This document shows, in pieces, positions 19,676 to 59,029 of a stretch of DNA of 64,000 nucleotides (position 1 is its first letter; the number at the start of each line of letters is the position of its first letter). The notes beneath the pieces were generated by a model, which saw only the letters and a program-made list of their open reading frames with translations, searched no databases and was not told the DNA's origin. The translations under genes and the position numbers were made by a program. The stretch lies in the NCBI GenBank assembly GCA_036519395.1, contig DATDLJ010000072.1:4893-68892 (forward strand), written 5' to 3'. This DNA comes from Solirubrobacterales bacterium. Lineage in GTDB: Bacteria > Actinomycetota > Thermoleophilia > Solirubrobacterales > 70-9.

Positions 19676-20365
19676 ATGGGCGCGAAGCAGGAAGCGCAGG
19701 ATTGGGCTGACCTAGTGGGCCGCTACGGCGAGCGCCACGGGCTGACCTACGAGCCGGTCGGCGGGATCAATCCCAAAGACGGGCCGGTGGCCCTCTGCGT
19801 CGGCGGCGTCAACCGGCTAACCGGGCAGTTGAGCGAAGGCTTCTGGGGTTCCTCCTGCGACGCCGACGAAAGGGAGGTGGGCGGCCTCTTCAGCAAGGCG
19901 GTGCTGCCGACGGCGCTCCTCGCCAAGGCCCACATGCCGGATCTGGCGCGGGTGGTGCCCGCCTTCAACGTCGAGTCGATCGAGGGACACGAGGTCGTCA
20001 CCCAGCGCTTCCAGCGCAAGGTCGAGTTTGAGTCGATCGACTTCAACAGGCGCTTCCTCACCACGGTGCCGAGCGAGTACGACCCGGTGGCGCTGCGGGA
20101 GCTGTTCGGGCCCGGGTTCCTCGGCTGGGTGACGACGCTCGGCGGCGAGATCGACTTCGGGGTCAACGATCGCCAGCTCTGGTTCCTCTGGCGGCTGGGC
20201 GAGCGCAGCGAGGCGGAACTGAAAATGGCGCTGAAGAATGCCGGGCAGCTGTTCAAACGGCTGCAGGCGGAGATGGACGAGAGCGGCATCCACACCTATC
20301 CGCCGGGCCCCTGGCACGCGGGCCTGGAGGCCTTCCCCGACGCCCAGGCGCCTCAGGCCGGGTAG
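19676..20365 (+). CDS. Hypothetical protein (DUF3137-like by recollection; such proteins are often next to LemA)
   Basis: ...KVEFESIDFNRRFLTTVPSEYDPVALRELFGPGFLGWV... Divergent from lemA. Confidence 0.5.
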   Translation: MGAKQEAQDWADLVGRYGERHGLTYEPVGGINPKDGPVALCVGGVNRLTGQLSEGFWGSSCDADEREVGGLFSKAVLPTALLAKAHMPDLARVVPAFNVESIEGHEVVTQRFQRKVEFESIDFNRRFLTTVPSEYDPVALRELFGPGFLGWVTTLGGEIDFGVNDRQLWFLWRLGERSEAELKMALKNAGQLFKRLQAEMDESGIHTYPPGPWHAGLEAFPDAQAPQAG

Positions 20366-20997
20366 TCCGGATCGCCCGGGAGGACGACCCGGGGTTCGGC
20401 CCCGACGTCGGCGATCACCTTCGGCAGGATCGGCTCCAACGTCCGCTCGCGGTAGGCGGCCAGCGCCTCGTCGGAGGTGGGGAACTCAGCCAGCCAACGC
20501 AGCTGGGTCTGGGTGGGGAAGGAGAGGAGGATCTCGCCCGCCTCCTGCGCCTCGAGGGCGGCGGCCGGTTCGAACCAGCGGGCCTCGGTGGTCTCGAAGC
20601 CGTCCGGCTGCGGCGGTGTGTGGGCGGGGGCGAGGGCGAGAAAGAACCAGGCATCGAAGCGGGTGGCGATGATCTCGGGCGTGATCCAGCGGCTGAAGGG
20701 GACGAGCTCCTCCTCGGCCGGCAGCTCGATCCCGGCCTCCTCGGCGAGCTCGCGCAGGGCGCAGGCGCGCAGGCCGACTTCCTCGGCGCCGTCGCACTCG
20801 TCCACCGAGCCGCCCGGGAAGACCCAGACGCCGGGCATGAATTTCGCCTCCTCGCTGCGCCGCAGCATCAGCACCTCGAGCGCTCGCTGCGAGTGCTTGC
20901 CGCCGCGCCGCAGGAGGACGACCGAAGCCGCTGGCCGCGGCGTCGAAGGCTCCCCGAAGTTGGGCATCTCCGCCGGTCCCCGTCGCCGCTCCTCCAT
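20353..20997 (-). CDS. NUDIX hydrolase, CoA/acyl-CoA pyrophosphatase-like
   Basis: NUDIX box GGSVDECDGAEEVGLRACALRELAEEAGI, preceded by LRRSEEAKFMPGVWVFPGG (RS-x3-K-x3-G-x3-FPGG). I prefer the ATG at 20997 because the longest-ORF GTG at 21042 lies inside the hairpin element. Confidence 0.8.
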   Translation of the reverse strand: MEERRRGPAEMPNFGEPSTPRPAASVVLLRRGGKHSQRALEVLMLRRSEEAKFMPGVWVFPGGSVDECDGAEEVGLRACALRELAEEAGIELPAEEELVPFSRWITPEIIATRFDAWFFLALAPAHTPPQPDGFETTEARWFEPAAALEAQEAGEILLSFPTQTQLRWLAEFPTSDEALAAYRERTLEPILPKVIADVGAEPRVVLPGDPDYPA

Positions 20998-21018
20998 CGC
21001 CGCAGGGTACTCGCGGCT

Positions 21019-21068
21019 GACGTGTCTGAGTATTTCCCCCACATATGACGGGAAAACTCAGACACGTC
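21019..21068 (-). promoter_or_regulatory. 50-bp hairpin-forming element, copy A (function unknown)
   Basis: GACGTGTCTGAG-TATTTCCCCCACATATGACG-GGAAAACTCAGACAC-GTC. 12-bp perfect outer inverted repeat plus inner stem TTTCCC/GGGAAA. Second copy at 48299..48348. Confidence 0.6.
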
Positions 21069-21071
21069 GGG

Positions 21072-22223
21072 TTAACTGAGGACGCGGCGGCGCTCGCGGC
21101 GGACCCAGGCGCGGTGGGTGAGCCAGGCGAGCAGGGCGATGAGGACGATCGGGCCGAGGATCGCGAGGGCGACGACGGTGACCGCGGCGGCGACGGCGAG
21201 GATCTGGCCGGCATCGTCGAGGGCATCGCCGACGCCCCAGGCGCCACCGCTGTCGGTGGATTCCTCGGCAGCGCCGGTCTCGATCTGGACCAAGACCCGG
21301 GAATAGTCGGCGCGCCGCTGCAGATGCTGGAGCTGGGAGCGTAGGAGTGCGCGGTGGCGCCGCTCCTGCGTCAGCTCGGCTTCGACGGCTTCGCGTTCGG
21401 ATTCGGTTTCCGACGCTTCGAGCTGGCCGAGGAGGCTGTCGATGCGGGCGTTGGAGTCCTGCAGCTGCTCGTTGACGTTGACGGTGGGGGCGGTGATGTC
21501 GGCGGTCGCCTCGTGGCGGGAGCGCACCTCGTCGATCGCCGAGAGATCGGCGAGGGCGTCGCCGAGCTTGGCACTTGGGATCAGCAGCGCAAAGCGCGCT
21601 CCGGCCCGGCCCGGCTCGCCCTCGCGGGTGGAGGAGCGCATCACGATCCCGTCGTGAGCGCGGACGACTTCGAAGATCTCGGCCGAGTCGTCGGCGACGT
21701 CGGCGGGCGCGGCGCCGAGGACGAGCGTGGCGGAGCGTTCGACGGCGCGGTTGCGAACGGGGGCGCTGCCGCGGGTGTAGCCACCGCTGCTGTCGAAGTT
21801 GAGGTTGGCCGCACCGGCGGCGCTGCTTGCTTCGGTTTCCATCCCGTTTGACGGCGCTGCCGCCGATTCTGCCCCCGCCGTCTCCGGCTTGACGGGGACC
21901 GCCTTCCCGAAGGTGAGAGGGGGCTTGGACTCCTGTGCTGCCCCTGGGGACGCCGTGACGCCCAGATCCCGGTTTTCGGTGCCGTTGATGGCGACCACCG
22001 CCGTCACTAAGGCGATCGCCAGCATCGCTACCCCGCCGGCCGGGATCAGCAGCCGCCGCGGAGGGATCGCCCGCAGGCGCTCGAGCGAGAAACGCGGCAG
22101 CCCCGAGCGCCGCGGGAATCCCGCGGCGGCGCGCTCGTCGAGCTCGGCGGCGAACTCGGGGCGCGGCGTTGCCCGCAGCGCCCGCAGGTCCTCGGCCAGT
22201 CGGTCGTCTCTAGGCGTCTCCAT
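21072..22223 (-). CDS. Anti-sigma factor-like membrane protein with DUF4349-type extracytoplasmic domain
   Basis: Overlaps the upstream ECF sigma gene by 14 nt. Has a TM after about 65 aa, coiled-coil-like region and C-terminal TM (ILAVAAAVTVVALAILGPIVLIALLAWL). Confidence 0.7.
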   Translation of the reverse strand: METPRDDRLAEDLRALRATPRPEFAAELDERAAAGFPRRSGLPRFSLERLRAIPPRRLLIPAGGVAMLAIALVTAVVAINGTENRDLGVTASPGAAQESKPPLTFGKAVPVKPETAGAESAAAPSNGMETEASSAAGAANLNFDSSGGYTRGSAPVRNRAVERSATLVLGAAPADVADDSAEIFEVVRAHDGIVMRSSTREGEPGRAGARFALLIPSAKLGDALADLSAIDEVRSRHEATADITAPTVNVNEQLQDSNARIDSLLGQLEASETESEREAVEAELTQERRHRALLRSQLQHLQRRADYSRVLVQIETGAAEESTDSGGAWGVGDALDDAGQILAVAAAVTVVALAILGPIVLIALLAWLTHRAWVRRERRRVLS

Positions 22224-26368: not shown

Positions 26369-26379
26369 GGACGCCGGCG

Positions 26380-26408
26380 CATCGGGCGGCATAGGCTGCC
26401 GCCCGATG
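26380..26408 (+). promoter_or_regulatory. 11-bp GC-rich hairpin whose 3' arm contains the yaaA start codon
   Basis: CATCGGGCGGC-ataggct-GCCGCCCGATG. The final ATG (26406-26408) is the YaaA start. Confidence 0.5.
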
Positions 26409-27059
26409 CTGATCCTGCTGCCGCCGTCCGAAGGCAAGGCCCGCCCCGAGACGGGTGCGCCGGTTGACCTTGGATCGCTTGCTTTCGCGACGGAGCTGGG
26501 CAAAAAGCGGGAGGAGCTGATCGCGGCCTTTGACCCGGCGTTGCGGAAGGCGCCGGCAGCACCTGCGGCCGAGGTCTACACCGGGGTGCTGTTTGGGCGG
26601 CTGGAGCTGCCGAAGCTGGCGGCCAGGGCTCGGCGCAGGGTGCTGATCGCGAGCGCCCTCTGGGGGATGGTGCGGCCGGACGACCGCATTCCCTATTACA
26701 AGTTCCCGCCATCGATGCGGCTGGATGGGATCGGCGCGCCGAATGCCTTTTGGCGACCGGCCCTGACCGAGGCGCTGCCCGACGAGAAGGGCGACCTGGT
26801 CGTCGACATGCGCTCCGGCGCTTATTCGGCGGCCTGGAAACCGAAGCGGGCAACGCTGCTGGCAGTGCGCGCCTTCAGCGAGGAGGGAGGACAGCGCAAG
26901 GCGGTCTCCCACATGGCGAAGGCGGTGCGCGGAGATGTGGCCCAGGTGCTGCTGACGGCGAAGAAGGCGCCCGGCGACCCAGAGAGCGCGGCGGCGATCG
27001 CCGAGGCGGCAGGCTTCACCGTCGAGCTGACCGACAGCAGCCTCGACGTCATCGTCTAG
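26406..27059 (+). CDS. yaaA: YaaA-family (DUF328) peroxide-stress protein
   Basis: MLILLPPSEGKARPETG...ALWGMVRPDDRIPYYKF... The N-terminal 59 aa of ORF 26229..27059 overlap the MFS gene and were trimmed. Confidence 0.8.
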   Translation: MLILLPPSEGKARPETGAPVDLGSLAFATELGKKREELIAAFDPALRKAPAAPAAEVYTGVLFGRLELPKLAARARRRVLIASALWGMVRPDDRIPYYKFPPSMRLDGIGAPNAFWRPALTEALPDEKGDLVVDMRSGAYSAAWKPKRATLLAVRAFSEEGGQRKAVSHMAKAVRGDVAQVLLTAKKAPGDPESAAAIAEAAGFTVELTDSSLDVIV

Positions 27060-27714: not shown

Positions 27715-28899
27715 TCAGGCGGCCAGCGGCTGGGCCGCGACCAGGCCCGCCTCACGGGCGGCGACCCCGACCATATGAGCGGCCGCGACCAGGTCCTCTG
27801 GGCGGTGGGTGGCCATCGCGGTCAGGCGCAGGCGGCAGGAGCCCTCGGGGACCGTTGGCGGCCGAATCCCTTGAGCGAAGACGCCCTTCTCCAGGGCCAG
27901 CTCGCAGAGCCCCATCGTCGCTTCTGCCTCGCCGACGTGGACGGGGACCACCTGGGTCGTCGAAGCCCCTACCTCAAGGCCCTCGGCGGCGAGCGAGCGC
28001 CGCAGCAAGGCGGCGTTTGCCTGTAGCCGCTCGACCAGCTGGGGTTCGACTTCGAGGATCGAAAGCGCCGCCAGCGCTGCGCCGACCGATGGTGGTGGGG
28101 GCGCGGTCGAGAAGATGAACGGCCGCGCCTGGTTAATAAGGAAGTCAGTGATCTCCTCCTTGGCGCAGACGTAGGCCCCGTAGGAACCAAGGGCCTTGCC
28201 CAGGGTGCCAACCACGATGTCGACCTCACCGCTGAGGCCGGCGGCGGAGACCGAGCCGCGCCCGCCCGGGCCGACGGCGCCGGTTGCGTGGGCCTCGTCG
28301 ACCATCAGGCGCGTGTTGTGCTGGCGGGCCAGTTCGAGCAGCTCGGGGAGGGGCGCGACGTCGCCATCCATCGAGAAGACGCCGTCGCTGACGATCAGCG
28401 ACGCCCGCCCGCCGGCTTGCCGCAGGCCCCAGCCGAGGTGGTCGAGGTCGCCGTGGCGGTAGACGAAGGTCTCCGCCCGCGAGAGTCGGCAGCCGTCGAC
28501 GATGCTGGCGTGGTTGAGCTCGTCGGAGAAGACGACTTCGCCGCGCCCGGCAAGCGCCGCGATCGTCCCCGTGTTGGCGAGGTAGCCAGAGCCGAACAGC
28601 AGTGCCGCCCCGTAGCCCTTAAAAGTGGCGAGGCGCTGCTCGAGCTGCCGGTGCGGCTCCATGTTGCCCGAGATCAGGCGCGAGGCACCGGCGCCGGCGC
28701 CCCAGTGCAGCGCCGCCTCGGCGGCGGCGTCGCGCACCTCGGTCCGGTCGGCGAGCCCGAGGTAATTGTTCGAGCAGAGGAGGAGGACGGGCTGACCGCC
28801 GAGGGTGACGGTCGGGCCCTGCGGTCCCTCAATCAGGCGGAGTCGCCGGTAAAGCCCCCGGTCGCGGAGCTCCTCGAGCCGCTCGGCGACGTCGGTCAC
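27715..28899 (-). CDS. bioF: 8-amino-7-oxononanoate synthase
   Basis: ...CSNNYLGLA...DELNHASIVDG...DEAHATG...GTLGKALGSYG... Confidence 0.9.
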   Translation of the reverse strand: MTDVAERLEELRDRGLYRRLRLIEGPQGPTVTLGGQPVLLLCSNNYLGLADRTEVRDAAAEAALHWGAGAGASRLISGNMEPHRQLEQRLATFKGYGAALLFGSGYLANTGTIAALAGRGEVVFSDELNHASIVDGCRLSRAETFVYRHGDLDHLGWGLRQAGGRASLIVSDGVFSMDGDVAPLPELLELARQHNTRLMVDEAHATGAVGPGGRGSVSAAGLSGEVDIVVGTLGKALGSYGAYVCAKEEITDFLINQARPFIFSTAPPPPSVGAALAALSILEVEPQLVERLQANAALLRRSLAAEGLEVGASTTQVVPVHVGEAEATMGLCELALEKGVFAQGIRPPTVPEGSCRLRLTAMATHRPEDLVAAAHMVGVAAREAGLVAAQPLAA

Positions 28900-30020
28900 G
28901 CCGCCCGTGGGTAAGAAGGCGGCTTCTTCGCCTTCTTGACGACCCGCAGTTGGGTGGAGGGATCCCAGAAGTTCGCTTCCTCTTGGCTGTCGACCAGCTC
29001 GTCGATCGGCGTCGCCGGCGTCTCGCCTTCGAGCCAGCCGGAGCGGTTGTCGGGCCGCGGGTTGGCGCCGTTATCGGGTTGGCGGGCGACGTTCAGGCCC
29101 AGCTCTTCAAACATCTCCCGGTCGTCGGCGGGCTCGGCCCCGAGGGTGGTGAGGAAGTTCCCCATCATCACCCCGTTCAGCCCCGCCTTTACGGCAAGCC
29201 CGTGCAGCTCGCCGAGGTTCTCGACCCGGCCGCCGCAAAGACGGAAAAGGGCGCCGGGGATGATCAGGCGGAAGATCGCGATCCACTTCACGACCTCCCA
29301 GGGATCCATCACTTCGCGGTCGCCGAATTTCGTCCCGTCCTTTGGGATTAGGAGGTTGATCGGGACCGAGGTGGGGTTGATCTCGGAGAGCTCGAAGGCC
29401 ATCTCGACCCGCTGCTCCTCGGTCTCGCCAAGGTTGAGGATGCCGCCGACGCAGGTCTCCAGGCCCGCCTCTTTGACCGCTTGGATCGTCCGCAACCGCC
29501 CCTCGTAGCGAACCGTGGTTGAGACCTCCGGGTAGTAGGAGCGGGCCGACTCGACGTTGTGGTGGACCCGCTGGACACCAGCATCTTTCAGCGCTTTCGC
29601 TCGCTCGGTCGACATGTGGCCGATCGAGGCGCAACGCTTGAGGTTGGTTTTCTCGGCGACCAGGCGGGTGCCCTCGAGGATTTTCTGGAAGTCCCGCTTG
29701 GAGAGGCCCTGGCCCTGGGTGACCATGCAGAAGCGGTGGGCGCCGGCGGCCTCGGCCGCTTCGGCGTGTTCGAGGATCTGCTCCGGCTCCATCATCGCGT
29801 GCATCGGCGTGTCGGCCTCGGCGTAGCGGGACTGGGCGCAGAAGCCGCAGTCCTCGGCGCAGCCGCCCGACTTGGCGTTGACCAGCGAGCACATGTCGGT
29901 CGAGTTGCCGAAGTTCTCCACCCGCACCTCCCAGGCGCGTTCGACCAGCGCTTCGATCTCGGCGTGGTCGGTGAGGCGGCCGTAGGCGCGAGCCTCGTCA
30001 ACAGTGATCAGGGAGGACAC
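28896..30020 (-). CDS. bioB: Biotin synthase (radical SAM)
   Basis: ...NAKSGGCAEDCGFCAQS (CxxxCxxC)...HNVESA... Overlaps the bioF start by 4 nt. Confidence 0.93.
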   Translation of the reverse strand: MSSLITVDEARAYGRLTDHAEIEALVERAWEVRVENFGNSTDMCSLVNAKSGGCAEDCGFCAQSRYAEADTPMHAMMEPEQILEHAEAAEAAGAHRFCMVTQGQGLSKRDFQKILEGTRLVAEKTNLKRCASIGHMSTERAKALKDAGVQRVHHNVESARSYYPEVSTTVRYEGRLRTIQAVKEAGLETCVGGILNLGETEEQRVEMAFELSEINPTSVPINLLIPKDGTKFGDREVMDPWEVVKWIAIFRLIIPGALFRLCGGRVENLGELHGLAVKAGLNGVMMGNFLTTLGAEPADDREMFEELGLNVARQPDNGANPRPDNRSGWLEGETPATPIDELVDSQEEANFWDPSTQLRVVKKAKKPPSYPRAA

Positions 30021-30048
30021 GCGGCAAATCTAAGAATCGGGCCGGACG

Positions 30049-30101
30049 CTAGTCCGCCGGAGTTTTTCGTCGCTATGCGGAACAAAAGACCGGCGGACTA
30101 G
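30049..30101. promoter_or_regulatory. 12-bp perfect inverted repeat with 29-nt spacer in the bioB/GH3 divergent intergenic region
   Basis: CTAGTCCGCCGG-agtttttcgtcgctatgcggaacaaaaga-CCGGCGGACTAG, 29 nt upstream of the bioB start (30020) and 12 nt upstream of the GH3 start (30113). Confidence 0.5.
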
Positions 30102-30112
30102 CATCGGAGCCG

Positions 30113-31234
30113 ATGGAACTAACGGTGACGCGGCGACGAAGGATGGCGCTGGGAGTTCTCATCCTGTTGGCGATTGCGGCATTCGCGCTCGGTGTGACCC
30201 TCGGAGAGGACGGGACGGAGGCGAAGTCGCCGCCGGATGTCGCCACCACCCTGTCGGCGCAGCAGCTCGCCGGCCAGCGGATCGTCGTCGGTCTGCCGGG
30301 AACCTCGATCTCGAAGGGGCTGCGCCAGGCGATCGCCCAGGGCAAAGTGGCGGGAGTCGTCCTTTTTGCCGAAAACTTCCCCAGTCGGGCGGCCGGCAAG
30401 CGCTTAATCGCCGAGCTGCAGGGGATCCGGCGGCCGCCAAAGCTGCGCGACCCGCTGTTGGTGATGACCGACCAGGAGGGCGGCTTGGTGAAGCGGGTGA
30501 GCGGCGCCCCCACCGCCTCGGCCAAGGAGATGGGGGACCGCGGCGCAACCTTTAGCGCCCGCCAGGGCCGCGACACCGCCGCCAACCTGCGCGAGGTTGG
30601 CGTCAACGTCGATCTCGCCCCGGTCCTGGACGTGGGACGGCCGGGTGGGGTGATCGCGGAGACGGAAAGAAGCTTCGGCTCGACCGCGGCCGCCGTCATT
30701 TCCACCGCGATCCCCTTTGCCAAGGCTTTGCAGGCCGGCGGCGTGGCGGCGACCGGCAAGCACTTCCCCGGGTTCGGCGCCGCGACCGAAAACACCGACT
30801 TCTCGGTCGAACGGATCGACCTCTCAAAGCGGGAGCTGCGTGCCGTGGATGAGAAGCCTTACGCCGCGTTTGTCGGGGCCGGCGGCAAGCTGGTGATGCT
30901 CAGCACCGCGATCTACCCCGCCTTCGCTGATACCCCTGCCGCCTTCACCCGGGCGATCGTCACCGGTGAGCTGCGCAACCGGCTCGGCTTCGAAGGGGTG
31001 ACGATTACCGACGCGCTGGAAACGCCAGCGGTCGAAGCCTTCGGTGGTACCGCCAAGGTCGCGGTCGCCGGCGCCCGTGCCGGTGCCGAGCTGCTCCTCT
31101 TCGCGCGCCTTGGTCCGGCCGAGCGGGCCTGGAAGGCGCTGGTGGCGAAGCTGCGTTCCGGTGGTCTCAAACGCCAGGAGTTCGAGCTCTCGGTGCAACG
31201 CGTGCTCGACCTCCGCGCCGGGCTGGGCCGTTAA
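30113..31234 (+). CDS. Glycoside hydrolase family 3 N-terminal-domain protein (beta-N-acetylhexosaminidase-like), membrane-anchored or secreted
   Basis: ...LVMTDQEGGLVKR...DLAPVLDV...GKHFPGFGAATENTD... Confidence 0.85.
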   Translation: MELTVTRRRRMALGVLILLAIAAFALGVTLGEDGTEAKSPPDVATTLSAQQLAGQRIVVGLPGTSISKGLRQAIAQGKVAGVVLFAENFPSRAAGKRLIAELQGIRRPPKLRDPLLVMTDQEGGLVKRVSGAPTASAKEMGDRGATFSARQGRDTAANLREVGVNVDLAPVLDVGRPGGVIAETERSFGSTAAAVISTAIPFAKALQAGGVAATGKHFPGFGAATENTDFSVERIDLSKRELRAVDEKPYAAFVGAGGKLVMLSTAIYPAFADTPAAFTRAIVTGELRNRLGFEGVTITDALETPAVEAFGGTAKVAVAGARAGAELLLFARLGPAERAWKALVAKLRSGGLKRQEFELSVQRVLDLRAGLGR

Positions 31235-47059: not shown

Positions 47060-48274
47060 CTACAGCCCGTAGCTCCGCCCGATCACGTCGAGCATCACCT
47101 CGTCGGTGCCGGCGCCGATCCGGTTGAGGCGAACGTCGCGGTAGGCGCGCTCGATCTCGTACTCCTTCATGTAGCCATAGCCGCCGAGGATCTGGATGCA
47201 GTCGTCGGCGACCTCGCAGGCGATCCGCGAGGAGAAGAGCTTCGCCATCGTGATCTCCCGCACCGGGTACTCGCCGTTGCCGAAGCGCCAGGCGGTCGCG
47301 TAGGTGAACTGCTTCGCCGCCTCGGTCTTGGTCGCCATCTCAGCGAACTTGTGGCGGATCGCCTGGAACTTGCCGATCGAGCGCCCGAAGGCTTCGCGCT
47401 CCTTCGCGTACTCAAGGGTCTTCTCGATCATTCGTTCACAGCCAGCGTGGGACCCAGCGGCGGCGACCAAGCGCTCGCCCTGGAGCTCCCAGGCGATGTG
47501 GTAGAAGCCCTTGCCGACCTCGCCGAGCACGGCATCGGCCGGGACGCGGACGTCTTCAAAGGCGAGTTCGCCGGTGTCTGAGGCGTGCATCCCCATCTTC
47601 TCCAGCTCGGCGGAGACGGTGAAACCGGGGACCTTCTCGCCGTTCTCATCGCGCAGGTCGACGACGAAGAGGGTGATGCCGGCGTGGCGCTCCTCCGGGT
47701 CGGTCTTGCAGACGAGGACGATGAAGTCCGCCCGCGGACCGTTGGTGATGAAGGTCTTGGAGCCGTTAATGACGTATTCGTCGCCATCGCGGATCGCGGT
47801 AGTGCGGATGCCGGCGACGTCGGAGCCGGCGCCCGGCTCAGTGATCCCGAGGGCGCCAACCTTTTCGCCCTTGAGGCCCGGTTCGAGGTACTTCTTCTTC
47901 TGCTCCTCGGTGCCGAGCAGGTGGATCGGGGGGAGGACCATGTCGGTCTGGACCGCGAAGCCCATATTGGTGCCGCCGGAGCCGGAGTAGCTCATGCACT
48001 CGGCGCGAACCAGGGAGTAGAAGTAGTCGCCGCCCTGGCCGCCGTACTCCTCCGGGAAGCAGAGGCCGAGGAAGCCGAGCTCGCCCGCCCGCTTCATCTT
48101 CTCGGTCGGCCAGTAGGTGTCCTCCCATTCGTTGCGGTGAGGCCACATCTCCTTTTTCACCCACGACTCCATCGACTCACGCAGGTCTTCGTGCTCCTGG
48201 CTGAAGATGAAGTGCTTGCGCCCAGCTGCGTGGTCAGGCTTGATGACGCTGGAGCCGTTGGTTGCGGTCGCCAC
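47060..48274 (-). CDS. Acyl-CoA dehydrogenase
   Basis: ...ALGITEPGAGSDVAGIRTTA...GGYGYMKEYEIERAYRDVRLNRIGAGTDEV. GTG start with AGGAGAG upstream. Confidence 0.92.
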   Translation of the reverse strand: MATATNGSSVIKPDHAAGRKHFIFSQEHEDLRESMESWVKKEMWPHRNEWEDTYWPTEKMKRAGELGFLGLCFPEEYGGQGGDYFYSLVRAECMSYSGSGGTNMGFAVQTDMVLPPIHLLGTEEQKKKYLEPGLKGEKVGALGITEPGAGSDVAGIRTTAIRDGDEYVINGSKTFITNGPRADFIVLVCKTDPEERHAGITLFVVDLRDENGEKVPGFTVSAELEKMGMHASDTGELAFEDVRVPADAVLGEVGKGFYHIAWELQGERLVAAAGSHAGCERMIEKTLEYAKEREAFGRSIGKFQAIRHKFAEMATKTEAAKQFTYATAWRFGNGEYPVREITMAKLFSSRIACEVADDCIQILGGYGYMKEYEIERAYRDVRLNRIGAGTDEVMLDVIGRSYGL

Positions 48275-48298: not shown

Positions 48299-48348
48299 GA
48301 CGTGTCTGAGCTCGACCCACGAATGCGGTGGGAAAACTCAGACACCCC
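48299..48348 (-). promoter_or_regulatory. 50-bp hairpin-forming element, copy B (function unknown)
   Basis: GACGTGTCTGAG-CTCGACCCACGAATGCGGTG-GGAAAACTCAGACAC-CCC. The flanks match copy A (21019..21068) in 27 of 30 positions (the 3 trailing nt differ) and the spacer is also 20 nt. The inner stem is CCCAC/GTGGG. Confidence 0.6.
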
Positions 48349-48407
48349 CTATGCGAAGTGGACAGTAGCACTTCCCACTTCCAGTGGAAACGCTATGGTT
48401 CGCGGGG

Positions 48408-51694: not shown

Positions 51695-52910
51695 CGACGT
51701 CAAGGTCCTGGACCTGACCCGGCTGCTGCCGGGCGGGTTCTGCTCGTTGCTGCTCGCCGACCTCGGCGCCGAGGTGCTGAAGGTCGAGGACACCGGGATG
51801 GGCGACTACATCCGCTGGGCGCCGCCCTATTACGGCACCGAGGAGCAGCAAGCGCTCGGCACCCGCTCGTCTCTCTACCTCTCACTCAACCGCGGCAAGC
51901 GCTCAGTCCGGCTCAACCTCAAGAACGACCAGGGGAAGGAAGCGCTGCTGCGCCTGGTCGCCGAGCACGATGTCGTCCTCGACGGCTTCCGCCCCGGCGT
52001 CCTCGACCGCCTCGGCGTCGGCTACGAGCGGATGCGCGAGGCCAATCCCCGGATCGTCTTCTGTGCGATCACCGGCTACGGCCAGGACGGCCCCTACACC
52101 CAGCGGGCAGGGCACGACATGAACTACCTAGGGCTGGTCGGCCTGCTCGGTCTGACCGGCGCCAAAGGCGGGCCACCGGTGCAGTCTGGAGGGCAGATCG
52201 CCGACCTTGGCGGTGGCGCCCTGATGGCCGCCTTTGGGGTGATGGCGGCGCTGCACGAGCGGGGACGCTCCGGCGAAGGGCAGATGGTCGACATCTCGAT
52301 GGCCGACGGCGCCCTCTCCTGGCTGGCGATGGTCGCTGGCCGTTACTTCTGCGACGAAGAGGTGCCGCAACGGGGCGAGCAGCAGCTCGCCGGCGGACTC
52401 GTCTGTTATTTGCCGTATGAGGCCAGCGATGGTTGGGTCACTTGCGGGGCGCTGGAGCCGAAGTTCTGGGCCGCCTTCTGCAACGGGGTCGATCGGCCCG
52501 ACCTGATCGAGAAACAGTTTGAGGCGCCCGGCTCCGAGGCCTGGACCGAGGTCGCCGCCGTCTTCCGCTCGCGCAGCCGCGACGAGTGGCTTGCCTTCAA
52601 CGACGAGCACGACTGCTGCATCGAGCCGGTCCTGGACATCGACGAGGCGCTCGATTCGGAGTTGGTGCGGGCGCGCCAGATGGTCGTCGAGCTGGAGCAG
52701 CCCGAGCTCGGCACCGTCCGCCAGCTCGGTAACCCGGTGAAGCTGAGCCGCACCCCCGCCGACCCCAGCCGCCCGGCGCCCGCCTTCGGCGAGCACACCG
52801 ATGAGGTCCTAACAGAGGTCGGCTACTCCGCCGAGGAGATCACGGCGATGAAAGAGTCCGGCGCCGCCGCCGGTCCTGCCGCCGAGCCGCAAGAGGAGTT
52901 CCGCGCGTGA
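51675..52910 (+). CDS. Family III CoA-transferase (CaiB/BaiF)
   Basis: LSDVKVLDLTRLLPGGFCSLLLADLGAEVLKVE...ITGYGQDGPY..AGHDMNY... Confidence 0.9.
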   Translation: MSALPLSDVKVLDLTRLLPGGFCSLLLADLGAEVLKVEDTGMGDYIRWAPPYYGTEEQQALGTRSSLYLSLNRGKRSVRLNLKNDQGKEALLRLVAEHDVVLDGFRPGVLDRLGVGYERMREANPRIVFCAITGYGQDGPYTQRAGHDMNYLGLVGLLGLTGAKGGPPVQSGGQIADLGGGALMAAFGVMAALHERGRSGEGQMVDISMADGALSWLAMVAGRYFCDEEVPQRGEQQLAGGLVCYLPYEASDGWVTCGALEPKFWAAFCNGVDRPDLIEKQFEAPGSEAWTEVAAVFRSRSRDEWLAFNDEHDCCIEPVLDIDEALDSELVRARQMVVELEQPELGTVRQLGNPVKLSRTPADPSRPAPAFGEHTDEVLTEVGYSAEEITAMKESGAAAGPAAEPQEEFRA

Positions 52911-53611
52911 GTTCCACCGGCACTCCCGATACCCAGAACCAACTGCTGCGAATGGGTGAGCTGGCCGAGGCCTCCGGGGTTCCGGCGCCGACGATCAAGC
53001 ACTACCTGCGCGAGGGCTTACTGCCGGAGCCGGTCAAGACCAGCCGCAACATGGCCTACTACCCACCCGAGTTCGTCGACCGGATCAAGCTGATCAAGCG
53101 CCTGCAGGAGGAGCGTTACCTGCCGCTGAAAGCGATCAAGAACGTGCTCAACGAGGATCCCGACCGAGCCAAGGCGATGCTTGAGCTCGGCGACCAGATC
53201 CTCGATCGCGCCCTTGCCGGCGAGCGCTCCCGGACTAGCGCCACCGATGTCCGCAAGCGCTACGGGTTGCCGAAGGAGGTCCTAGACCGCCTCGCCGAGC
53301 TCGAGGTGCTGACCCCCAACAGCCGCGGCTACTCACCCTCCGACGTGACGATCATCGAGGCGATCAGCCGCTTTCGCGCCGGCGGCTACGACGAGCAGAT
53401 CGGCTTCACCGTCTACGACACCCTCCGCTACAAAGCGGCATTGGAAGAGCTTGTTCGCCAGGAGGTCGACGTGGTGATGGAACGGCTCGCCGGCGAGGTG
53501 CCGCCGGAGCGGGTGGTCGAGATGCTGGAAGTCGGCGCCCAGCCGCTGAAGGACCTGATCGCGGCCCTGCACACCAAGCTGATGGTCGCCGAGCTCGAGC
53601 GGCGAAGCTAG
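52907..53611 (+). CDS. MerR family transcriptional regulator
   Basis: LLRMGELAEASGVPAPTIKHYLREGLLPEP... N-terminal MerR HTH. Last gene of the plus-strand acyl-CoA operon. Confidence 0.85.
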   Translation: MSSTGTPDTQNQLLRMGELAEASGVPAPTIKHYLREGLLPEPVKTSRNMAYYPPEFVDRIKLIKRLQEERYLPLKAIKNVLNEDPDRAKAMLELGDQILDRALAGERSRTSATDVRKRYGLPKEVLDRLAELEVLTPNSRGYSPSDVTIIEAISRFRAGGYDEQIGFTVYDTLRYKAALEELVRQEVDVVMERLAGEVPPERVVEMLEVGAQPLKDLIAALHTKLMVAELERRS

Positions 53612-57596: not shown

Positions 57597-58430
57597 GTGC
57601 GTGTAGCGGCGGTGCAGCTCAATTCAAACGGGGACAAGGCGCGGAATCTCGCAACTGCAGAGTGCCTGGTGCGCGAGGCGGCCGGCGATGGTGCGGAATT
57701 CGTCGCCCTGCCGGAGAAGTGGAACCTGCTGGCCGGCGGTGAGGAACTCGCTGCCGGGGCGGAGTCGCTGGACGGGCCGAGCTTGAGCGCCGCCCGCGGT
57801 TGGTCCCGGGACCTGGGCATTCACCTGCTGGCGGGGAGCATTTCCGAGCGAAGAGGAGAGGGAAAGAAAGCCTCCAATACCTCGGTCTTGATTGGACCCG
57901 ACGGCGACGATCTCGCCGTCTACCGCAAGATCCACATGTTCGACGTTGACGCCGGCGGCGTTGCCTATCGCGAGTCCGAGCACGAGCAGCCTGGCGACGA
58001 AGCAGTGGTCTCTCAGCTCGGCGACCTCACCGCCGGGATGACCGTCTGTTACGACCTTCGCTTTCCGGAGCTATTCCGGATTCTCGCCCTGCGCGGCGCT
58101 CGCCTAATTGCCGTCCCATCTGCCTTCACCCTCGCCACCGGCCGCGACCACTGGGAAGTGCTGCTGCGGGCGCGGGCGATCGAGAACCAGCTCTTCGTCC
58201 TGGCGCCGAACCAGTGGGGGGAGGCGCCGCCGCACTACAGCTCCTTTGGTCATTCGCTGATCGTTGATCCTTGGGGGGTAGTGCTGGCTCAAGCGTCGGA
58301 CGGGGAGTGCTTCGTGGTCGCCGACCTTGACTTCGCCTCGCTCGACCAGATTCGCGAGTCGCTCCCCTCCCTTGCCAATCGCCAGCCCGGCGCCTATGTC
58401 TGGCCGCAATCGACGGAGAGCCGCGGCTGA
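57597..58430 (+). CDS. Carbon-nitrogen hydrolase (nitrilase superfamily)
   Basis: VRVAAVQLNSNGDKARNL...LPEKW...YRKIHMFD...CYDLRFPELF... (E-K-C triad context). GTG 57597 has GGAGG 8 nt upstream. The ORF-track start is 57558. Confidence 0.88.
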   Translation: MRVAAVQLNSNGDKARNLATAECLVREAAGDGAEFVALPEKWNLLAGGEELAAGAESLDGPSLSAARGWSRDLGIHLLAGSISERRGEGKKASNTSVLIGPDGDDLAVYRKIHMFDVDAGGVAYRESEHEQPGDEAVVSQLGDLTAGMTVCYDLRFPELFRILALRGARLIAVPSAFTLATGRDHWEVLLRARAIENQLFVLAPNQWGEAPPHYSSFGHSLIVDPWGVVLAQASDGECFVVADLDFASLDQIRESLPSLANRQPGAYVWPQSTESRG

Positions 58431-59029
58431 TGGCGCAGGCGCCGCCCGCTGACAAGCGCCGCTTGATCCTCGACGCCGCCGTGCGGGTCTTTGCCCGTCA
58501 GGGATTCCACGCGACCCGGGTCTCCGACATCGCCGATGAGGCGGGCGTCGCCTACGGCCTCGTCTACCACTACTTCAGCTCAAAGGACGAGGTCCTGAAC
58601 GAACTCTTCATCGAGCGCTGGTCGTTGTTGCTGGTGGCGATCGAGGAGGCGGATAAGACGGCCGCCACTCCCCGCGAGAAGCTGGGGGCTGTGGCTACGT
58701 TCATCTTCGATTCCTACCGCCACGACCCGGAGCTGATGAAGGTGATCATCGTCGAGGTGACCAGGGCCGCCAACTCCTTCGGTCGCACCCACCTGGAGGA
58801 AATCCGCCGCGCTTATGAGTCGATCGCCAAGATCGTCGACGATGGGCAGGCGAGCGGCGACTTTCGCGGCGACGTGGCGCCGATGTTTGCCTCGATGTCG
58901 TTCTACGGCGCGATCGAGCAGCTGCTCTCGGGTTGGATCTTCGGCACCATCCCCGCCTCGGACACCGACTTCGATCAGGCGCGGGATCTCCTTGTCACCA
59001 CGATCTGCGACGGCTTGGAGCCGCGCTGA
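58430..59029 (+). CDS. TetR/AcrR family transcriptional regulator
   Basis: KRRLILDAAVRVFARQGFHATRVSDIADEAGVAYGLVYHYFSSKDEVL. The start overlaps the nitrilase stop. Confidence 0.9.
   Translation: MAQAPPADKRRLILDAAVRVFARQGFHATRVSDIADEAGVAYGLVYHYFSSKDEVLNELFIERWSLLLVAIEEADKTAATPREKLGAVATFIFDSYRHDPELMKVIIVEVTRAANSFGRTHLEEIRRAYESIAKIVDDGQASGDFRGDVAPMFASMSFYGAIEQLLSGWIFGTIPASDTDFDQARDLLVTTICDGLEPR

What the first reader, a model, noticed from the sequence alone, without database searches (positions are those of the whole stretch)
48299..48348. A 50-bp hairpin element occurs twice with near-identical flanks, identical spacing and differently built inner stems; copy B sits in the control region of the acyl-CoA cluster
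The plus-strand sequence at 48299-48348 is GACGTGTCTGAG / CTCGACCCACGAATGCGGTG / GGAAAACTCAGACAC / CCC. At 21019-21068 it is GACGTGTCTGAG / TATTTCCCCCACATATGACG / GGAAAACTCAGACAC / GTC.

- The 12-nt left block and 15-nt right block are identical in both copies, and the spacer is exactly 20 nt in both.
- The outer blocks form an inverted repeat (GTGTCTGAG / CTCAGACAC), 12 bp perfect in copy A and 9 bp in copy B.
- The diverged spacers share only about 8 of 20 positions, yet each forms an inner stem from different bases (A: TTTCCC/GGGAAA; B: CCCAC/GTGGG). That looks like compensatory change, which would favour a transcribed RNA structure. It could also be a bipartite protein site.
- Both copies have the same orientation relative to the next minus-strand start. 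Copy B is 24 nt from GTG 48274, including an AGGAGAG Shine-Dalgarno. Copy A is 21 nt from ATG 20997.
- Copy B lies between the divergent ACAD-NTF2-ACAD operon and the crotonase-carboxyltransferase-BKACE-CoA-transferase-MerR operon. The MerR protein is therefore the obvious candidate binder.

I do not recognise the element as any named riboswitch, leader or operator.
Basis: seen in the sequence. Interest (0 to 1): 0.7.

Follow-up and report, generated by a model that had tools for sequence, protein, structure and literature searches.

The report
Dispersed palindromic hairpin repeat, not operator
The two 50-base hairpins are copies of a palindromic repeat scattered through the genomes of an uncultured group of soil actinobacteria (Solirubrobacterales), so they are not a control element specific to the fatty-acid (acyl-CoA) gene cluster.

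Summary
Both copies exist as described, fold strongly, and no shuffle reproduces them.

The regulatory interpretation does not hold.
- A scan of 185,579 species genomes found the same palindrome (GTGTCTGAG-N26-CTCAGACAC) in 91 stretches from 48 assemblies. Nearly all are Solirubrobacterales MAGs, with 1-6 pattern-exact copies each.
- The copies lie next to about 35 unrelated locus types (rarA, pstAB, thiE, purN, hemC, bioB and others).
- One copy class sits in frame inside a GH15 gene.
- The element is absent from all ~29 metagenomic orthologues of the ACAD upstream region. Those regions conserve a different 25-bp palindrome next to copy B (window 48357-48383), which is the likely real operator.
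- At copy A's site, close relatives either carry the element or have an empty site. The promoter-like -10 box of the Nudix gene is conserved in both cases.

The inner stem, and in one variant family the outer stem, change by compensatory substitutions. Copies within one genome resemble each other more than orthologous copies in other genomes do.

Best reading: a lineage-specific REP/RPE-like hairpin repeat, with incidental effects on its neighbours. It has one unusual trait: a strong bias to promoter-bearing (divergent) intergenic regions, with none between convergent genes. A host function at the DNA level is therefore not excluded.

The parts
48299..48348 (.). Copy B of the palindromic repeat. 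The core is 48302-48345: outer stem GTGTCTGAG/CTCAGACAC, inner stem CCCAC/GTGGG, centre GAATGC.
   Evidence: The covariance model R1 scores it 57.7 bits on + and 43.7 bits on -.
21019..21068 (.). Copy A of the palindromic repeat. The core is 21022-21065, with a 12-bp outer stem and centre ACATATGA. It starts 6 nt after the TAA stop of the DUF4349 gene and ends 12 nt before the -10 box of the Nudix gene.
   Evidence: R1 scores it 61.4 bits on + and 56.2 bits on -. Orthologous copies are in L020, L040, L046, L176, L178 and L179; L175 is an empty site.
30036..30114 (.). A 79-nt hairpin of similar layout but with different arms (TCCGCCGG..CCGGCGGA, T-run/A-run, centre GCTATGC). It lies between the divergent bioB and GH3 genes. 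It is probably a relative from the same wider family of hairpins.
   Evidence: I1. DNA fold -27.3 kcal/mol, z -5.4. The orthologous site holds the GTGTCTGAG element in L178, a GTGGTTGAG/CTCAACCAC arm variant in L179, CCGGTCATTTG hairpins in L176 and L177, and nothing in L175.
48357..48383 (.). Neighbouring conserved palindromic box (on the minus strand GGAAGTGGGAAGTGCTACTGTCCACTT). It is not part of the repeat. It is the likely real operator and promoter core of the divergent ACAD and crotonase operons.
   Evidence: The box is conserved upstream of ACAD orthologues down to 59% amino-acid identity, while the hairpin is absent there. It contains the -10-like hexamers TACTGT (minus strand, 48367-48362) and GACAGT (plus strand). 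The promoter reading is an inference.
21004..21009 (-). Putative -10 box TACCCT of the apparently leaderless Nudix gene (ATG 20997). It lies outside the element.
   Evidence: A TA(C/G)(C/G)(C/G)T hexamer sits 6-8 nt before the ATG in all orthologues, with or without the element. The leaderless reading is an inference; no transcript data are available.
47060..48274 (-). ACAD gene, with its Shine-Dalgarno AGGAGAG 16 nt from copy B. If transcription starts at the conserved box, copy B would be a hairpin near the 5' end of the leader.
   Evidence: The transcription start site is inferred only.
20353..20997 (-). Nudix hydrolase gene downstream of copy A.
   Evidence: Pfam PF00293. There are 120 homologues of 85-92% identity, almost all of the same length.
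21072..22223 (-). DUF4349 gene (the anti-sigma position in the ECF sigma operon). Its stop codon is 6 nt from the core of copy A.
   Evidence: Pfam PF14257. Synteny is shown.

Best explanation
Both copies belong to a lineage-specific family of roughly 50-bp palindromic repeat elements. These behave like REP elements or Rickettsia palindromic elements (RPE), and they are carried by an uncultured clade of Solirubrobacterales with genomes of about 2.4-3 Mb.

The unit consists of:
- a G(G/A)(C/G) foot;
- an outer stem GTGTCTGAG/CTCAGACAC that is identical in every copy found without the search pattern;
- a T-run/A-run segment (TTTTCCC or CTTGACC opposite GGGAAAA);
- a 3-5-bp GC inner stem whose sequence varies freely as long as it pairs;
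- an AT-rich centre, CAYATRTG.

Shown:
- The family is dispersed next to unrelated genes.
- Copies are present, absent or inverted between close relatives. Some sites instead carry a different hairpin of similar layout.
- One copy class sits in frame inside a coding gene.
- An arm supplies the stop codon of another gene.
- Its variable part is homogenised within genomes.

Inferred:
- It persists and spreads as a DNA hairpin (single-stranded or cruciform). A protein not yet identified would recognise it through the constant outer stem. A hairpin-specific HUH/RAYT-type enzyme is the obvious model.
- Self-correction of palindromes by template switching may help keep the arms paired.
- Its effects on the window's genes are by-products of where it landed. 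Copy B would be a stable hairpin close to the 5' end of the ACAD leader. Copy A is a hairpin just after the DUF4349 stop codon and upstream of the Nudix -10 box.
For: Distribution
- 91 stretches in 48 assemblies, nearly all Solirubrobacterales MAGs, with 1-6 pattern-exact copies each.
- No match in viral contigs, plasmids, phages or Rfam.
- Neighbouring genes fall into about 35 unrelated locus classes.

Gain and loss
- The ACAD locus lacks the element in all ~29 metagenomic orthologues, including ones with 89-90% identical ACAD.
- At the Nudix locus, L175 is an empty site; L177, which lacks the DUF4349 gene, also has no element. L176, L178 and L179 are filled.
- L120 carries a half remnant.

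Coding contexts
- An in-frame copy lies inside a GH15 gene and encodes DVSEFSRHIWGENSDTP. It is present in 60 of 110 homologues.
- The arms are exact at the DNA level in L172 and L173 despite the rare codons TCT and TCA.
- An arm provides the hemC stop codon TGA.

Hairpin pairing is maintained
-.
- Three different inner-stem types sit between identical arms at the same site.
- An arm variant, GTGGTTGAG/CTCAACCAC, occurs at two loci.

Concerted evolution
- Inner 26-nt identity is 0.76 for copies in the same genome, 0.68 for orthologous copies in other genomes, and 0.62 for other pairs. In a permutation test, 0 of 2000 reached the observed value.
Against: - Copy number is low for a REP-like family, and closed chromosomes have only 1-2 pattern-exact copies.
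- No transposase was found. A crude HUH-Y1 motif scan of the flanks gave nothing, and whole genomes could not be searched.
- There are no target-site duplications.
- The location bias is the opposite of classical REPs. 55 of 77 copies lie in divergent intergenic regions and none in convergent ones. REPs lie mostly downstream of genes (PMC3733652).
- Different hairpins occupy exactly the same sites in different genomes. That is hard to explain by random insertion. It fits either site-specific targeting or selection for a hairpin at those sites.
Confidence: 0.55

Rival explanations
1. It is a host-functional DNA element of promoter regions. A cruciform-prone palindrome, or the binding site of a global hairpin- or duplex-binding protein, sits just upstream of the -10 boxes of mostly leaderless genes, often between divergent promoters. 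There it would absorb negative supercoiling or insulate and tune the two promoters.
For: - Strong bias to divergent intergenic regions: 55 of 77 copies, against 15% of gene pairs or 28% of intergenic length (p about 3e-15). No copy lies between convergent genes (p about 4e-6).
- The element ends 2-21 nt from a TANNNT box in most of the 55 flanking genes that look leaderless.
- The AT-rich centre and the T/A runs suit cruciform nucleation (sequence).
- The same sites keep some hairpin in most genomes even when the arms differ.
- Orientation does not matter.
- There is no strand bias in wobble pairs.
Against: - Promoters at the same sites exist without it. L175 shows this at two loci, and the ACAD orthologues show it at a third.
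- The distance to the -10 box is not fixed.
- Copies also sit inside a coding gene and between cistrons such as pstA-pstB and hemC-cobA.
- The neighbouring genes have no common function.
- No binding protein is known.
Confidence: 0.22
2. It is a transcribed RNA hairpin that acts in cis. It could be a 5'-terminal stem-loop protecting the ACAD mRNA, or a 3' or intercistronic stem-loop that stabilises or terminates the upstream transcript, as described for many REPs.
For: - Very stable RNA folds on both strands.
- Compensatory changes.
- Some copies must be transcribed: those between pstA and pstB, the one inside GH15, copy A 6 nt after a stop codon, and copy B and the nitronate monooxygenase copy right next to a Shine-Dalgarno sequence.
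Against: - No T-run follows the stem, and the terminator scan finds nothing at the element.
- Most copies lie upstream of the -10 boxes of apparently leaderless genes, so those genes would not transcribe them.
- On the sense strand, A-C mispairs are at least as frequent as G-T: 21 vs 10 in tandem contexts and 11 vs 9 in coding sequence.
- Orientation flips between orthologues.
- No Rfam family matches.
Confidence: 0.12
3. This is the first reader's reading: a cluster-specific operator or leader of the acyl-CoA genes, bound by the MerR (52907-53611) or TetR (58430-59029) protein.
For: Copy B lies in the divergent control region, and the element is palindromic. The MerR and TetR genes are confirmed.
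Against: - It is absent from all ~29 metagenomic orthologous control regions, which conserve the adjacent box at 48357-48383 instead.
- The same element lies next to about 35 unrelated locus types and inside a GH15 gene.
- It is inverted in L086.
- The half-sites are 35 bp apart centre to centre, and the inner part covaries rather than being conserved.
Confidence: 0.03
4. It is an intrinsic, possibly bidirectional, transcription terminator.
For: It is a GC-rich long hairpin. Copy A lies directly after a stop codon, and several tandem copies lie 5-9 nt after stop codons.
Against: - There is no U-tract.
- No copy lies between convergent genes, and 71% lie between divergent starts where nothing needs terminating.
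- One copy class lies inside a coding sequence.
Confidence: 0.03

Closest known systems
REP / REPIN elements mobilised by RAYT transposases (Proteobacteria)
   Same: - Short palindromic repeats that fold as hairpins.
- A constant stem base with a variable upper part, and compensatory changes.
- Vertical persistence combined with within-genome homogenisation.
- Several sequence classes among related strains.
- Occasional intragenic copies, and stop codons supplied by the repeat end.
(PMC3116915, PMC3686654, PMC3733652; here.)
   Different: - Here there are 1-6 pattern-exact copies per genome, probably tens at most, rather than dozens to hundreds.
- There is no GTAG tag.
- It is one two-tier 44-50-nt hairpin rather than 20-40-nt units in inverted pairs.
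- Its location bias is to divergent, promoter-bearing regions, whereas REPs lie mainly downstream of genes (PMC3733652, section read; here).
- No RAYT has been identified (weak test).
Rickettsia palindromic elements (RPE) and other intragenic REPs
   Same: Palindromic repeats found both between genes and in frame inside protein-coding genes, where they add a short peptide. They are kept in orthologues of many species (PMC3733652; here).
   Different: - RPE-1 is longer (about 100-150 bp, from my own knowledge).
- It occurs in an unrelated lineage and has no sequence similarity.
- Here only one coding locus was seen, and most copies are promoter-proximal.
CGTC-tagged REP super-family (Di Nocera et al. 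2013)
   Same: About a third of the arms end in ...CACGTC (GACGTG... on the other strand). The CGTC families have 8-9-bp stems and apparently lack a dedicated transposase (PMC3733652).
   Different: - In CGTC REPs the tag is unpaired, the loops are 4-5 nt, there is a CCA tail, and A-T pairs open the stem.
- Here GAC/GTC is only one of three foot variants (GGC, GGG, GAC) on each arm, which assort independently.
- The stem encloses a 26-nt second tier.
Integron attC sites (works-like comparison only)
   Same: Imperfect palindromes with constant outer boxes and a free inner part, recognised as folded single-stranded DNA (my own knowledge).
   Different: There are no cassette arrays, no R''/R' core sites (RYYYAAC/GTTRRRY), and no integrase nearby. 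Copies are solitary and lie at promoters.
Neisseria Correia (NEMIS) elements
   Same: Small repeats with terminal inverted repeats. They are often found upstream of genes, are co-transcribed, and can alter promoter or mRNA behaviour (my own knowledge).
   Different: Correia elements are 100-155 bp with a TA target duplication and their own promoter boxes. No duplication and no sigma-70-like promoter were found here.

Membership tests
REP/REPIN-RAYT system | Short imperfect palindrome able to form a hairpin, repeated in the genome | tested here: met
   Folds. 94 copies in 49 sources counting the window.
REP/REPIN-RAYT system | High copy number (dozens to hundreds per genome) | tested here: not met
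   1-6 pattern-exact copies per assembly, and 1-2 in closed 2.4-3.0 Mb chromosomes. The pattern misses some copies: it caught 1 of 3 in one genome. The true number is therefore higher but unknown.
REP/REPIN-RAYT system | Conserved GTAG (or CGTC) tag at the foot of the hairpin | tested here: not met
   The foot is G(G/A)(C/G), with three variants that assort independently. There is no GTAG.
REP/REPIN-RAYT system | Cognate single-copy RAYT (Y1 HUH transposase) gene flanked by the repeats | not testable with these tools
   Only 8-20 kb around each copy could be read. A crude HUH-Y motif scan of those flanks found nothing.
REP/REPIN-RAYT system | Predominantly extragenic, downstream of genes (unidirectional or convergent contexts) | tested here: not met
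   55 copies in divergent, 22 in tandem and 0 in convergent contexts, compared with PMC3733652.
MITE | Terminal inverted repeats plus a target-site duplication | tested here: not met
   The whole unit is a palindrome, but the flanks show no direct repeat. Comparing the empty site (L175) with filled sites gives no duplication.
Rickettsia-type palindromic elements in coding genes (behavioural class) | Palindromic repeat inserted in frame in a conserved protein and also present between genes | tested here: met
   GH15 locus. Other annotators call the gene across the element (Pfam PF00723, NCBI and JGI names).
Cis-regulatory RNA (riboswitch or leader) | Conserved in the 5' UTR of orthologous genes of one functional group, in one orientation | tested here: not met
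   Absent from ACAD orthologues. Neighbouring genes are unrelated. Orientation flips. No Rfam match.
Intrinsic terminator | GC-rich hairpin followed by a T-run, downstream of genes | tested here: not met
Transcription-factor operator of a regulon | Conserved half-site sequence upstream of functionally linked genes, retained in orthologous promoters | tested here: not met
   The outer half-sites are constant, but the inner part covaries. The neighbouring genes have no common function. One copy class is inside a coding sequence. Orthologous promoters lack the element.

The most novel reading that the evidence does not exclude
The hairpins could be a previously undescribed kind of promoter-proximal DNA element in a Solirubrobacterales clade. 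Two versions fit the data:
- a domesticated cruciform or protein-bound palindrome that the host keeps just upstream of leaderless promoters, where the site retains a hairpin even as its arms are exchanged;
- a non-autonomous hairpin element with an unknown enzyme that targets such sites, and one protein loop, with high precision.
Probability: 0.2. Interest if true: 0.65.

Novelty: new variant of a known kind. Interest (0 to 1): 0.35.

Why it matters
For annotating this window, the result removes a tempting but wrong regulatory assignment. It points instead to the conserved box at 48357-48383 as the real control site of the acyl-CoA operons.

More generally, it documents a palindromic repeat family in a poorly known, uncultured actinobacterial order. 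The family is low in copy number, keeps its hairpin through compensatory change, and can sit in frame in a protein. Unlike classical REPs, it concentrates at promoter-bearing regions.

If the site constancy reflects targeting or selection, the family would be a handle on how DNA hairpins interact with leaderless promoters, or on a new hairpin-specific mobilising enzyme.

Tried and rejected
- Rfam at gathering and permissive thresholds on the window, 18 loci and the three hairpins gave only tRNAs and one TPP riboswitch next to a copy. Nothing matched the element.
- A literature search for the arm sequences returned only primers and shRNAs.
- Viral contigs, plasmids and phages gave no match.
- The sigma-70 promoter and terminator scans found nothing at either copy. 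I looked for a -35/-10 pair inside the palindrome (TTGACC in the left arm, TGACGG in the inner stem, the AT centre) and found no consistent spacing, so I dropped it.
- I considered resemblance to a K-turn or a tandem G-A motif in the internal loop. I dropped it because many copies are fully paired there.
- I also considered resemblance to NrdR boxes, HspR HAIR, CIRCE and the mycobacterial RecA-NDp motif, all from memory. I dropped these because the spacing and gene sets do not fit.
- Basal 3-bp covariation looked real by eye but is not. The foot variants assort independently.
- My first GC3-only gene caller mis-assigned strands. I replaced it with a codon-model caller.
- The look-up of the window's ACAD protein in public assemblies found nothing, so the source genome remains unidentified.
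- I tried to show from solved GH15 structures that the GH15 segment is an insertion. The homology is too distant to align the loop.
- A simple hairpin scan of all window intergenic regions added nothing.

Full report
**1. The observation**

Both sequences are at the stated coordinates and read exactly as quoted. GTGTCTGAG-N(15-30)-CTCAGACAC occurs twice in the window and never in 100 dinucleotide-preserving shuffles. Relaxed searches for either block find no third copy. As RNA, the energies are -23 to -34 kcal/mol with z-scores of -4.2 to -6.8. As DNA, the z-scores are -3.9 and -7.6. The gene assignments around both copies hold: MerR, TetR, ECF sigma, DUF4349 and NUDIX.

**2. The element is a dispersed family**

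I scanned one genome from each of 185,579 species for GTGTCTGAG-N(14-30)-AAAACTCAGACAC. The scan found 91 stretches.
- They come from 48 assemblies, nearly all labelled Solirubrobacterales, Conexibacteraceae or unclassified actinobacterial MAGs.
- Each assembly has 1-6 copies. Closed chromosomes of 2.4-3.0 Mb have 1-2.
- The total length is 44 nt in all but three copies.
- Viral contigs, plasmids, phages and Rfam hold nothing similar.

The aligned copies give this unit:
- a foot G(G/A)(C/G);
- the outer stem GTGTCTGAG/CTCAGACAC;
- a T-run/A-run tier (TTTTCCC or CTTGACC opposite GGGAAAA);
- a short GC inner stem;
- an AT-rich, itself palindromic centre, CAYATRTG.

**3. The pairing is maintained**

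On 91 copies the inner pairs 21-36 and 22-35 are C-G in 68-71 copies and G-C in 14-16, with only 3-8 unpaired. The three foot pairs that looked covarying by eye are not; each arm takes GGC, GGG or GAC independently.

Because the scan pattern fixed the arms, I collected copies without it, through protein homologues of flanking genes.
- All six such copies of this family have exact arms: L172, L173, L176, two in L178, and L179.
- Their inner parts are of three unrelated types that all pair:
  - TTTTCCCGTC..GGGGGGAAAG
  - TTCAAGGGTC..GACCCCACCAG
  - GAGAAGGGGTC..CCCCCCGTCTC
- A variant family changes two adjacent outer-stem pairs on both sides (GTGGTTGAG/CTCAACCAC). It occurs at two different loci in two genomes, and each of those genomes also carries the standard form.
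- On a 20-sequence set, 12 of 22 pairs change on both sides. The covariation score is 0.212 against 0.115 in shuffles, and 0 of 500 shuffles reach it.

**4. Where the copies lie**

I used a self-trained codon-model gene caller.
- 55 of 77 placeable copies lie between divergent genes, 22 between tandem genes and none between convergent genes.
- Divergent pairs are 15% of gene pairs and hold 28% of intergenic length in the same loci (p about 3e-15). The depletion of convergent contexts has p about 4e-6.
- The copies are not independent, because they fall into about 35 orthologous locus classes. The bias still holds by class, on my own rough count.

The neighbours share no function. They include rarA, a GT39-like membrane protein, pstA/pstB, thiE next to a TPP riboswitch, a 5'-3' exonuclease, purN, hemC/cobA-hemD, ispH, fpg, xerD, a histidine kinase, sigma factors, bioB and others. 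The asymmetric side of the element points either way in orthologous loci.

Many flanking genes look leaderless: a TANNNT box lies 5-9 nt before the start codon. For 55 such genes the box lies outside the element, mostly 2-21 nt from its end. Other genes have a Shine-Dalgarno sequence directly after the element, so there the element must be transcribed or must overlap the promoter. The leaderless reading is an inference from sequence.

**5. The acyl-CoA locus**

Eighty metagenomic loci encode relatives of the window's ACAD. In the ~29 that include the upstream region and are at least 52% identical, the hairpin is never present. Model R1 finds only the two window copies in those 468 kb at E up to 5.
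- L094 (ACAD 89% identical) has an unrelated short hairpin at that place.
- L092 (90% identical) has a different 50-nt palindrome there: GACGTGCCGTGAG...CGACGGCACGTC.
- L120 carries half a copy.
- L086, the one genome that has the element at this locus, carries it inverted relative to the flanks.

What is conserved, down to 59% identity, is a 25-bp palindromic box, AAGTAGGAAGTGCTACTGTCCACTT. It lies at window 48357-48383 and contains -10-like hexamers on both strands. That box, not the hairpin, is the candidate site for the cluster's regulators. If TACTGT is the ACAD -10 box, transcription would start a few bases before copy B. Copy B would then be a hairpin near the 5' end of the leader. This is an inference.

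**6. The Nudix locus (copy A)**

Five syntenic loci were reached through Nudix homologues of 87-91% identity. The element is present in three (L176, L178, L179). In L175 the DUF4349 stop codon and the Nudix ATG are only 16 nt apart, so that is an empty site. L177 lacks the DUF4349 gene and also has no element. A TA(C/G)(C/G)(C/G)T box 6-8 nt before the ATG is conserved in all of them. The Nudix promoter therefore does not depend on the element. Copy A is probably not in the Nudix 5' UTR; it lies 6 nt after the DUF4349 stop codon and 12 nt upstream of that -10 box.

**7. Signs of a repeat element rather than a regulatory site**

(a) In six genomes the element lies in frame inside a GH15 gene. 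The protein sequence is conserved on both sides, and the element encodes DVSEFSRHIWGENSDTP.
- Among 110 homologues of 69-100% identity, 60 carry a VSE...SDT segment. The inner peptide switches between forms that correspond to different paired inner stems.
- 41 homologues carry a shorter segment, GE(V/P)AI(K/D)HLYGAKLP. The one case read at the DNA level (L174) is itself a different 36-nt palindrome built of AT-rich codons.
- 7 carry a third form and 2 have deletions.
- These states are interleaved in a similarity ordering of the rest of the protein. That ordering is crude UPGMA and should be treated with caution.

(b) The arm supplies the TGA stop codon of hemC in three genomes.

(c) The variable inner 26 nt are more alike between non-orthologous copies of one genome (0.76) than between orthologous copies of different genomes (0.68) or other pairs (0.62). 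In a permutation test, 0 of 2000 reached the observed value. This points to homogenisation or recent spread within genomes. Co-evolution with a trans-acting factor of each genome would give the same pattern.

(d) At the bioB-GH3 divergent region, six genomes show five states:
- the standard element (L178);
- the arm variant (L179);
- a CCGGTCATTTG hairpin (L176 and L177);
- the window's own 79-nt hairpin at 30036-30114;
- no hairpin (L175).

All hairpins there share the layout of outer stem, T/A runs and a CTATG/CATATG centre.

**8. How it most likely works**

I take the family to be a REP/RPE-like palindromic repeat. What persists is the DNA hairpin, with a constant outer stem that some protein must recognise. 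The rest is free to vary as long as it pairs. The recognising or mobilising protein is inferred, not found. A crude motif scan of the flanks saw no Y1/HUH gene, and whole genomes were out of reach. Template-switch correction of quasi-palindromes (my own knowledge) could also keep arms paired without selection.

The literature on REPs gives precedents for several of these traits:
- compensatory stems, several classes among related strains, intragenic copies and stop codons donated by the repeat (PMC3116915, PMC3686654, PMC3733652);
- but REPs sit mainly downstream of genes and in high copy number, which this family does not.

That difference, together with the constancy of the occupied sites, keeps alive a host-function reading: a cruciform or protein site upstream of leaderless promoters. 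I rate that reading at about 0.2. An RNA-level role is less likely. Most copies appear untranscribed by their neighbours. Sense-strand G-T mispairs are not favoured over A-C: 10 vs 21 in tandem contexts and 9 vs 11 in coding sequence. There is also no terminator tail.

**9. Verdict**

The proposed link to the acyl-CoA cluster and its MerR protein is not supported. The element is a new, lineage-restricted variant of a known kind, bacterial palindromic repeats. It has an unusual promoter-proximal distribution that deserves a whole-genome census.

Noticed in passing
window 48357-48383: A palindromic box (minus strand GGAAGTGGGAAGTGCTACTGTCCACTT) is conserved upstream of ACAD orthologues down to 59% identity. 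It is the probable operator and promoter core of the divergent ACAD and crotonase operons, and a better target for the MerR or TetR protein than the hairpin.
   Followed up: partly
window 30036-30114: A 79-nt hairpin lies between bioB (28896-30020, -) and a GH3 gene (30113-31234, +). Its 3' arm overlaps the GH3 -10-like box TAGCAT. The orthologous site in other genomes holds the GTGTCTGAG element, an arm variant, other hairpins, or nothing.
   Followed up: partly
L011, L017, L032, L036, L042, L081, L172, L173 (e.g. L017 6176-6219): The element sits in frame inside a GH15 glycoside hydrolase gene. Homologues carry at least three alternative segments at that position. One of them (L174 11082-11116) is a different palindrome made of AT-rich codons.
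   Followed up: partly
L012 6791, L030 287, L074 3104: The outer arm of the element provides the TGA stop codon of hemC (GT GTC TGA G). The element then separates hemC from cobA/hemD.
   Followed up: no
L038 4171-4335; also L010 7172 and L066 3965: The element lies between thiE, which looks leaderless with a GATAAT box, and a TPP riboswitch that heads the divergent thiO operon. The riboswitch match starts within the last bases of the element.
   Followed up: no
L092 2922-2977: A different 50-nt palindrome (GACGTGCCGTGAGTTAGC...GCTAATCGACGGCACGTC) occupies the position of copy B in a genome whose ACAD is 90% identical. It may belong to a sister family.
   Followed up: no
L179 3577-3619 and L070 7591-7633: An arm-variant family, GTGGTTGAG...CTCAACCAC, has two compensatory changes in the outer stem. 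It co-exists with the standard family in the same genomes.
   Followed up: partly
window 20995-21009, 30020-30113; many loci: Genes in this clade often look leaderless, with a TANNNT box 5-9 nt before the start codon and no Shine-Dalgarno sequence. About 55 of 129 genes flanking the element show this signature.
   Followed up: partly
window 26379-26409: A perfect 13-bp GC-rich hairpin (GCATCGGGCGGCA/TGCCGCCCGATGC) lies directly after the MFS transporter gene. It has no T-run, and looks like an ordinary actinobacterial terminator-type stem-loop.
   Followed up: no
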